A stretch of DNA of 61,328 bases, filler included, from Bonamia ostreae (Eukaryota): the NCBI GenBank assembly GCA_040357525.1. It is 17 parts of 17 records of this genome, joined end to end, with 100 filler letters (N's around TTAATTAATTAA, not from the genome) between each part and the next. Parts side by side here need not be neighbours in the genome. Positions count along the whole stretch, not along the records: positions 47,057 to 50,555 come from JBDODL010000491.1; 16 more parts are not named here. One strand, 5' to 3'. The position numbers were made by a program, and so were the translations under genes. Position 1 is the stretch's first letter. Each line of letters begins with the position of its first letter. The notes beneath the pieces are model-generated. The model was not told the origin of the DNA and made no database searches. It saw only the letters and a list, made by a program, of their open reading frames with translations. This document shows, in pieces, positions 49,160 to 49,437 of this stretch.

Positions 49160-49437
49160 CGGAATGGAGCGGTGATCCGATGCTTCTAAACGAAACAAAC
49201 TTTCGTATGCCGACCCAACGTCGGAACGCAATGATGCAATCAGATTTTTCCCGAGCGGATTTAGAGTTCGCTTCGGTTTGCAACTGATAGCACAGACATT
49301 TTTAAGCAGTTAAAATAGTCTTTTGGCTGCTCAGCGTTGGATGTCGTCCGCTACATGAATGTAAACGGAGAGATGACATGTTAGCTGCTTTAATGTTATC
49401 TCGCCATTTTACATTTTTGTGCAGCGGATAACATTCG
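49160..49437 (+). ncRNA. Candidate structured non-coding RNA, possibly H/ACA-terminated; family unassigned
   Basis: GC-elevated non-coding island between convergent genes. It has a long closing helix, several internal hairpins with G-U pairs on the + strand, AGATGA (H-box pattern) at 49371 and ACA at 49431. Confidence 0.5.

What the first reader, a model, noticed from the sequence alone, without database searches (positions are those of the whole stretch)
49160..49437. Unannotated, highly structured ~270-nt RNA candidate between convergent genes
Pairings read directly from the sequence. Closing helix: ATGGAGCGG (49164-72) with CCGCTACAT (49348-56), one mismatch, plus ATCCGATGCT (49175-84) with AGCGTTGGAT (49333-42). 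Internal hairpins: CGAAA/TTTCG (49191-205); CCGAC/GTCGG (49210-24); ATCAG/CTGAT (49239-88) enclosing GAGCGGA/TTCGCTT; AGCAGTTAAAA/TTTTGGCTGCT (49305-31). G-U pairs favour the + strand. Downstream are an ANANNA box (AGATGA, 49371), a GCTGC/GCAGC hairpin with an internal pocket, and ACA 15 nt after the upper stem (49431), which is H/ACA geometry. A multibranch 5' domain plus an H/ACA-like end recalls telomerase RNA or U17/snR30. I see neither a CCCTAA template nor the snR30 m1/m2 motifs, so it may be a new or strongly diverged RNA, or a small snoRNA cluster.
Basis: partly seen in the sequence, partly recalled or inferred. Interest (0 to 1): 0.72.

Follow-up and report, generated by a model that had tools for sequence, protein, structure and literature searches.

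The report
Repeat-made hairpin beside orphan folded stretch
The folded stretch between two genes of a small oyster-parasite-type genome is most likely a patchwork of a scattered repeat folded back on an inverted copy of itself plus a unique, moderately folded piece, not a telomerase or U17 RNA, and a much better telomerase RNA candidate turned up elsewhere in the same genome.

Summary
The folding is real (z -5.3 on +, -4.0 on -), and every listed helix is in the sequence. The proposed architecture is not favoured. The outer closing helix and the 'H/ACA' lower stem have pairing probability 0.00; a 38-pair hairpin (49340-49437) wins. The unique part (49186-49335, z -3.5) includes one pocket hairpin with ACA 15 nt below it, a possible single-hairpin guide with no target found. 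The locus has no snRNA-type promoter, telomere template or U17 motifs. U1, U3, U4, U5, RNase P/MRP, SRP and a U17-like RNA lie elsewhere. One RNA run covers the gap contiguously, strand unknown. Best reading (0.5): a repeat-derived foldback in read-through RNA, possibly cut by Dicer. The scan gave a similar patchwork reading for another locus. By-product: G000:C32:1621-1482 has promoter, doubled TTAGGG template, pseudoknot-compatible core and U-run, a strong telomerase RNA candidate; I found none described for this group.

The parts
47330..49072 (+). B56-family PP2A regulatory subunit ORF (left neighbour; stop-to-stop frame)
49150..49340 (+). Unique GC-raised segment (46% GC vs 22-26% in the flanks), single copy; z -2.75 (+) and -2.61 (-); the core 49186-49335 has z -3.48 (+) and -2.64 (-)
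49190..49206 (+). Hairpin H1, 6 bp with pentaloop
   Evidence: p 0.78-0.99
49210..49224 (+). Hairpin H2, 5 bp with pentaloop; run X3 has a 1-nt insertion in its stem
49236..49297 (+). Hairpin H3: 5-bp lower stem (49239-43/49284-88), 7x7 internal loop, 11-bp upper stem, ACA at 49292, 15 nt below the loop apex; single-hairpin H/ACA-like geometry, no target found
49305..49331 (+). Hairpin H4, 11 bp with 2 G-U
49340..49379 (+). 5' arm of the long hairpin H5: inverted duplicate of 49393-49436, 33 of 44 columns identical; present only at this repeat copy
49391..49499 (-). Degenerate copy of a dispersed AT-rich repeat (box 1 49457-49437, box 2 49416-49398); supplies the 3' arm of H5 and the ACA at 49431
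49543..50260 (-). TIP30/HTATIP2-like gene (right neighbour) with three 23-27-nt introns; 5' end approximate

Best explanation
The interval is a composite, not one RNA gene. A copy of a dispersed AT-rich repeat sits behind the TIP30-like gene (shown). About 40 bases of its distal end exist again in inverted form 13 bases away (shown), most simply by a local fold-back duplication that has since decayed (inferred). Together they give the 38-pair hairpin behind most of the folding signal (shown in silico, on both strands). To the left lies a unique, moderately folded 150-190-base piece (shown). The gap has no promoter of its own kind and is covered by one contig of an RNA run (shown), so it is probably copied as read-through or 3' tail of one or both convergent genes (inferred; strand unknown). 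The genome has a two-RNase-III Dicer-like gene and Piwi-domain fragments (shown), so the hairpin may be cut into small RNAs (inferred, untested). Nothing shows selection on the structure.
For: A profile from 33 other repeat copies hits 49499-49391 at 49.5 bits, E 1.9e-14. Box 1 has 93 genome matches at <=2 mismatches, control 0; box 2 has 25, control 1; the two occur in the same order at 6 of 22 other loci. An inverted partner is found in 1 of 25 box-2 copies, this one; the equivalent 98 nt fold to -36/-40 kcal/mol here and at best -20.7 in 19 others. H5 folds as well on either strand (z -6.7 and -7.4; 4 vs 3 G-U). No USE within 2 mismatches in 250 nt on either side. Run X3 differs by 6 substitutions and 1 insertion in 288 nt, not significantly fewer than 8 of 192 third codon positions in B56 (Fisher p 0.27) nor different from the flanks (2 of 182, p 0.49); 131 of 400 random change sets keep the fold as stable. 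One 780-nt X3 contig spans 48907-49685 with no joint. Dicer-like C12, Piwi.
Against: The unique part folds beyond chance by itself (z -3.48, 0 of 200) and is GC-raised, and the repeat does not explain it (no profile hit in 49140-49385). H3 fits single-hairpin H/ACA geometry, and H5 too ends 1 nt before an ACA; each has a chance of about 7-12% (7 ACA in 288 nt). The two X3 changes in H5 lose one pair and gain one. The 5' arm alone scores only -2.0 bits against the repeat profile, so its origin by duplication is inferred from the local copy only. Only one divergent isolate was seen, so the conservation test has little power. Contigs cannot show ends, strand or level of an RNA.
Confidence: 0.5

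Rival explanations
1. The unique part holds a real small RNA: H3 is a single-hairpin ACA-box pseudouridylation guide of about 62 nt (or part of a 150-190-nt orphan snoRNA), trimmed out of B56 read-through RNA and protected by dyskerin. The repeat hairpin is a bystander.
For: 5-bp lower stem, 7-nt pocket strands, perfect upper stem, 3 unpaired nt then ACA, 15-nt spacing and about 62 nt all fit the ranges given for trypanosome single-hairpin guides (PMC2613932, passages). z -3.07 for 49230-49300 (1 of 200). Dyskerin is present. snoRNAs in 3' UTRs and single-hairpin forms are reported in Entamoeba and Plasmodium (PMC3542256, passages). X3 changes spare both ACA triplets.
Against: No single-stranded ANANNA box follows any hairpin, while the genome's U17-like RNA has ANANNA boxes. 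No significant target in 106 proxy rRNA contigs or own snRNAs: best registers reached by 2-3 of 30 shuffles among 7 registers and by 7-40 of 40 among 5. X3 changes one pocket base and breaks one lower-stem extension pair. The organism's own rRNA could not be tested.
Confidence: 0.22
2. H5 is a selected small-RNA precursor (miRNA or hairpin siRNA). The Dicer-like enzyme cuts it, and products of the repeat arm guide Argonaute to other copies of the repeat in read-through or UTR RNA.
For: 38 pairs in 98 nt with few bulges. The best 21-nt window of the 3' arm matches 14 of 22 other repeat loci at <=3 mismatches. Dicer-like and Piwi genes present. 21-nt miRNAs and siRNAs, mainly intergenic, are shown in the rhizarian Plasmodiophora (PMC13547706, abstract and section 2.2).
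Against: Both arms of the expected duplex differ between isolates (49362, 49406). No strand bias. The 22 loci were picked for carrying that motif, so the match count is not independent. No small-RNA data.
Confidence: 0.15
3. The whole 290 nt is one RNA of an undescribed class, in which 49340-49356 switches between pairing with the 5' end and with the 3' repeat arm.
For: The folds lie within 4-7 kcal/mol.
Against: Such alternatives follow from inverted duplication. 49152/49348 has p 0.00-0.04. No promoter, no relatives found.
Confidence: 0.09
4. It is the telomerase RNA or U17/snR30.
For: Size, and a closed core followed by a long 3' stem, loosely recall plant and ciliate telomerase RNAs (PMC8287931 section 29). 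TERT is in the genome.
Against: No 6- or 7-nt permutation of CCCTAA on either strand, no USE, no m1 or m2. A better telomerase candidate lies on C32 and a U17-like RNA on C174.
Confidence: 0.02

Closest known systems
Repeat-derived inverted-repeat (foldback) hairpins that feed RNAi (general knowledge; in Rhizaria, palindromic miRNA loci of Plasmodiophora, PMC13547706)
   Same: Long imperfect hairpin from a repeat copy and an inverted duplicate, in intergenic transcribed DNA of a genome with an RNase III pair and Piwi domains.
   Different: No small RNAs shown; only about 40 bp of arm; the repeat family is uncharacterised and its other copies do not fold back.
Single-hairpin H/ACA-like (AGA) guide RNAs of trypanosomes, Euglena and archaea (PMC2613932)
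   Same: H3 matches stem I length, pocket size, spacing to the box and total length.
   Different: Box is ACA, not AGA; no cluster of similar guides; no target shown; no evidence of a discrete RNA.
Type-3-promoter telomerase RNAs of plants and ciliates (PMC8287931)
   Same: Only rough size and a long 3' stem.
   Different: No USE/TATA, template, template-linked pseudoknot or U-run terminator here; the C32 locus has these features.
U17/snR30
   Same: Ends in a hairpin followed by ACA.
   Different: No m1 or m2, no single-stranded H box; a U17-like RNA with both motifs lies on C174.

Membership tests
Telomerase RNA | Template: telomere repeat plus at least one base (7 nt for TTAGGG) | tested here: not met
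   No 6- or 7-mer permutation in 49101-49500 on either strand. TTAGGG as the telomere is inferred from 10 arrays on 8 contigs, 3 at contig ends, most behind TATA-like boxes.
Telomerase RNA | Type-3 promoter (USE + TATA), as in Diaphoretickes | tested here: not met
   USE AAATCCCAT read from U1, U3, U4, U5, P and SRP; no match within 2 mismatches beside the candidate.
Telomerase RNA | Pseudoknot 3' of the template with a U-rich loop | tested here: inconclusive
   Helix list only; no template to anchor it, no pseudoknot folding tool.
U17/snR30 | m1 and m2 motifs in the 3' hairpin | tested here: not met
   None at <=2 and <=1 mismatches on either strand (motifs recalled). Both are present in the C174 RNA.
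Two-hairpin box H/ACA snoRNA | Single-stranded ANANNA hinge after the 5' hairpin | tested here: not met
   8 ANANNA sites, none 14-16 nt below a pocket; AGATGA 49371 is in a helix.
Box H/ACA (either form) | Pocket hairpin with ACA 14-16 nt below the pocket apex | tested here: met
   H3: 15 nt to ACA 49292. H5: 14-17 nt to ACA 49431, but its pocket is mostly self-paired and repeat-derived.
Box H/ACA (either form) | Bipartite complement flanking a target U | tested here: inconclusive
   Not significant on proxy rRNAs; own nuclear rRNA, U2 and U6 were not found in the assembly.
Box H/ACA (either form) | Discrete RNA ending 3 nt after ACA and bound by dyskerin | not testable with these tools
   Only contigs were available.
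Box C/D snoRNA | C and D boxes with terminal stem and a 10-21-nt guide | tested here: not met
   C-like ATGATGC 49231 (1 mismatch, 2 in X3) and CTGA 49284 inside a stem; longest proxy-rRNA complement anywhere among the top shared hits 10 nt.
Spliceosomal snRNAs, U3, RNase P, MRP, SRP | Rfam model match | tested here: not met
   No hit here. U3 69.9, MRP 75.6, P 63.7, SRP 118, U4 94.4, U5 68.2 bits and two U1 genes (47.4 and 23.5 bits, below cut-off) elsewhere. No strict Sm site inside; weak pairing to own U4.
miRNA / hairpin-siRNA precursor | Long hairpin and RNAi machinery | tested here: met
miRNA / hairpin-siRNA precursor | Precise 20-24-nt duplex reads with 2-nt overhangs | not testable with these tools
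   No small-RNA run was offered.
Dispersed AT-rich repeat of this genome (49391-49499 only) | Significant match to other copies with the same box order | tested here: met

The most novel reading that the evidence does not exclude
A promoter-less RNA processed from read-through between convergent genes, in which an orphan single-hairpin ACA guide domain is joined to a captured repeat end that folds back and yields small RNAs against the repeat family: a snoRNA-like and RNAi hybrid not described in Rhizaria in the papers I searched.
Probability: 0.08. Interest if true: 0.7.

Novelty: new member of a known kind. Interest (0 to 1): 0.3.

Why it matters
If the best reading holds, the locus is ordinary: repeat-made hairpins mimic RNA genes in this genome, and BLAST-type copy searches miss the short AT-rich repeat. 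If H3 is a real guide, it would show single-hairpin H/ACA RNAs in a rhizarian parasite. The by-product matters more. PMC8287931 could not support any rhizarian telomerase RNA candidate (passage), and a search for 'telomerase RNA' with 'Bonamia' found 0 papers. The C32 locus makes that question directly testable; on its own I would rate it about 0.65.

Tried and rejected
Coding: only short frames in 49073-49542; the 35-codon frame from 49180 would be shifted by the X3 insertion. Host intron, as for MRP/U17: splice-like ends exist, but no joint was seen in four runs. tRNA: none in the window; A- and B-box matches are loose and there is no T6 run. SINE origin of the unique part: two 20-mers at <=3 mismatches and the DNA search found only this locus. 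Serial duplication of the whole region: direct repeats are at chance level (36 and 63 of 150 shuffles). Relatives: none by B56 protein in metagenome contigs (153 pattern hits, 0 confirmed) or in the protein database (1 hit, itself), so no covariation test. Runs X6, X7 and X8 (depth 2-19) cover only coding parts, which proves nothing. One search suggested a single copy and missed the repeat. Own rRNA: only mitochondrial rRNA and a degenerate fragment; no rRNA motif in viral contigs; none of the 106 proxy loci is close (best about 74% at the 18S end). Candidate targets at three conserved LSU sites were not significant. A model of 49186-49335 finds only itself in the window; a genome-wide search for structural paralogues remains open. 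Supplements of PMC9329632, which may hold the rRNA operon, could not be seen.

Full report
Setting. The window comes from a 10.3-Mb, AT-rich eukaryote assembly with 23-27-nt introns. Earlier notes of the scan name it Bonamia ostreae; I did not verify the name, but one run that holds the locus is labelled mollusc metagenome. The finding lies between a B56-family gene (stop 49072) and a TIP30-like gene (stop 49543), on contig C490.

Observation. All listed helices are there and the fold beats shuffles on both strands (z -5.30 and -3.97). The signal is concentrated: 49340-49439 is the strongest of 1140 windows. G-U counts barely favour the + strand (6 of 67 vs 4 of 57).

What it is not. Rfam gives nothing. 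U3, MRP, RNase P, SRP, U4, U5 and two U1 genes lie on other contigs. All but MRP share an upstream element AAATCCCAT with a TATA box 30-34 nt on; the candidate has none within 2 mismatches. U2 and U6 were not found in the assembly, nor the nuclear rRNA core; U4 is canonical and pairs poorly with the candidate, so I read these as assembly gaps (inference). TERT is present and TTAGGG arrays occur, three at contig ends. The candidate has no 6-nt permutation of the template.

Telomerase RNA elsewhere. Following the method of PMC8287931 (passages and section 29 read), a search for the USE plus a template core gave 5 matches at 4 loci, control 1. One, C32 minus strand, has the TATA at +34 and a start at +61, as SRP has. 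It shows a closing helix (1621/1543), a template AAACCCTAACCCT (from 1608), a pseudoknot-compatible core (3-bp P2, 5-bp P3, 8-nt U-rich and A-rich linkers), a 3' stem with a UUCG hairpin and a T5 run at 1486. Against it: its fold is only z -1.85 without the pseudoknot, P2 is short, telomere-like boxes also occur in promoters, and neither expression nor conservation was tested. I put it at about 0.75. That paper supported no rhizarian candidate; PMC12133305 (passages) showed me none either; searches found no paper describing one.

The repeat. Loose contig ends at 49434 and 49466-68 pointed to a shared element. Box 1 has 93 matches (control 0) and box 2 has 25 (control 1). A profile of 33 other copies matches 49499-49391 at E 1.9e-14 and nothing in 49140-49385. 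23 of 27 copies checked lie outside long frames. So the 3' arm of H5 and the ACA at 49431 are repeat sequence. The 5' arm is its inverted copy (33 of 44 columns), including the spacer peculiar to this copy; only 1 of 25 copies has such a partner, and no other folds comparably (19 tested). A local fold-back duplication is the simplest origin (inference).

The unique part. 49186-49335 is single copy by three searches and folds at z -3.48. H3 has the geometry of a single-hairpin H/ACA-like guide (PMC2613932, passages; box definitions also PMC8096250, passages). There is no usable H box. No target passed controls on 106 proxy rRNA contigs, 20 with SSU. This part remains unexplained.

Expression and variation. 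Of four runs laid, X3 covers the gap in one 780-nt contig (48907-49685) and lacks two of the three small TIP30 introns, so it holds spliced RNA; strand, ends and level cannot be read, and DNA may contribute. Its seven differences in the candidate show neither constraint nor structure-preserving bias, break the inner closing helix, and shift one pair within H5. The test is weak with one isolate.

Mechanism. Most likely the gap is read through from a neighbour and H5 forms in that RNA whichever strand is read. A Dicer-like gene with two RNase III domains and Piwi fragments could process it; miRNAs and siRNAs are shown in the rhizarian Plasmodiophora (PMC13547706, abstract, section 2.2, passages). 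Processing here is untested. Odds: composite without a discrete gene 0.50, orphan guide 0.22, selected small-RNA precursor 0.15, new whole-length RNA 0.09, telomerase or U17 0.02.

Other papers seen: PMC11069148 (passages; no mention of snRNA, telomeres or Dicer in the main text), PMC9329632 (passages; supplements not readable), PMC3542256 (passages), PMC10245619 (search listing only). The m1/m2, C/D, Sm and Pol III box motifs are recalled, not from a call.

Verdict. Real fold, mostly repeat-made; a small unique piece stays open. Interest 0.3. The telomerase RNA candidate on C32 deserves its own follow-up.

Noticed in passing
L157:1587-1385 (- strand) = G000:C32:1682-1480: Telomerase RNA candidate of the ciliate/plant type, about 140 nt: USE, TATA at +34, start at +61, closing helix, doubled TTAGGG template, pseudoknot-compatible core, 3' stem with UUCG hairpin, T5 end; no credible Rfam match; head to head with an exosome-Csl4-like ORF (name recalled from the sequence)..
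   Followed up: partly
L012:766-921 (- strand) = G000:C1288: Second U1 gene with its own USE and TATA whose 5' end lacks the ACUUAC splice-site pairing motif; a canonical U1 lies on C414 (L019). May relate to the GTT-rich donors of the tiny introns.
   Followed up: no
L014 (- strand) = G000:C135 about 5060-5165: Unannotated C/D-box-like RNA of about 95 nt with its own USE and TATA and a T7 end; no Rfam match.
   Followed up: no
L020 about 825-950 (+) = G000:C662: USE and TATA followed by a 10-bp helix closing about 125 nt; no Rfam match and no telomere template.
   Followed up: partly
L023 = G000:C1871:335-475 (- strand): U5 gene has two tandem USE-TATA units and a small perfect hairpin just ahead of the Rfam match.
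   Followed up: no
L034, L035, L037-L040: (CCCTAA)3 arrays sit just behind TATA-like boxes at several loci, like telo-box promoter elements.
   Followed up: no
   Followed up: partly
L008 = G000:C1592: Degenerate rDNA fragment (18S end, partial 5.8S, 28S start) with many changes at conserved positions; the functional rDNA, U2 and U6 were not found in the assembly.
   Followed up: partly
L152-L155 = G000:C12:949-2183 (- strand): Dicer-like gene with two RNase III domains; Piwi fragments on C3059, C1168, C6485.
   Followed up: partly
window 49391-49499 and at least 93 box matches in G000: Dispersed AT-rich repeat of about 110-130 bp, sometimes tandem (C3, C21, C280), mostly intergenic, one copy behind the U4 gene; type unknown.
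   Followed up: partly
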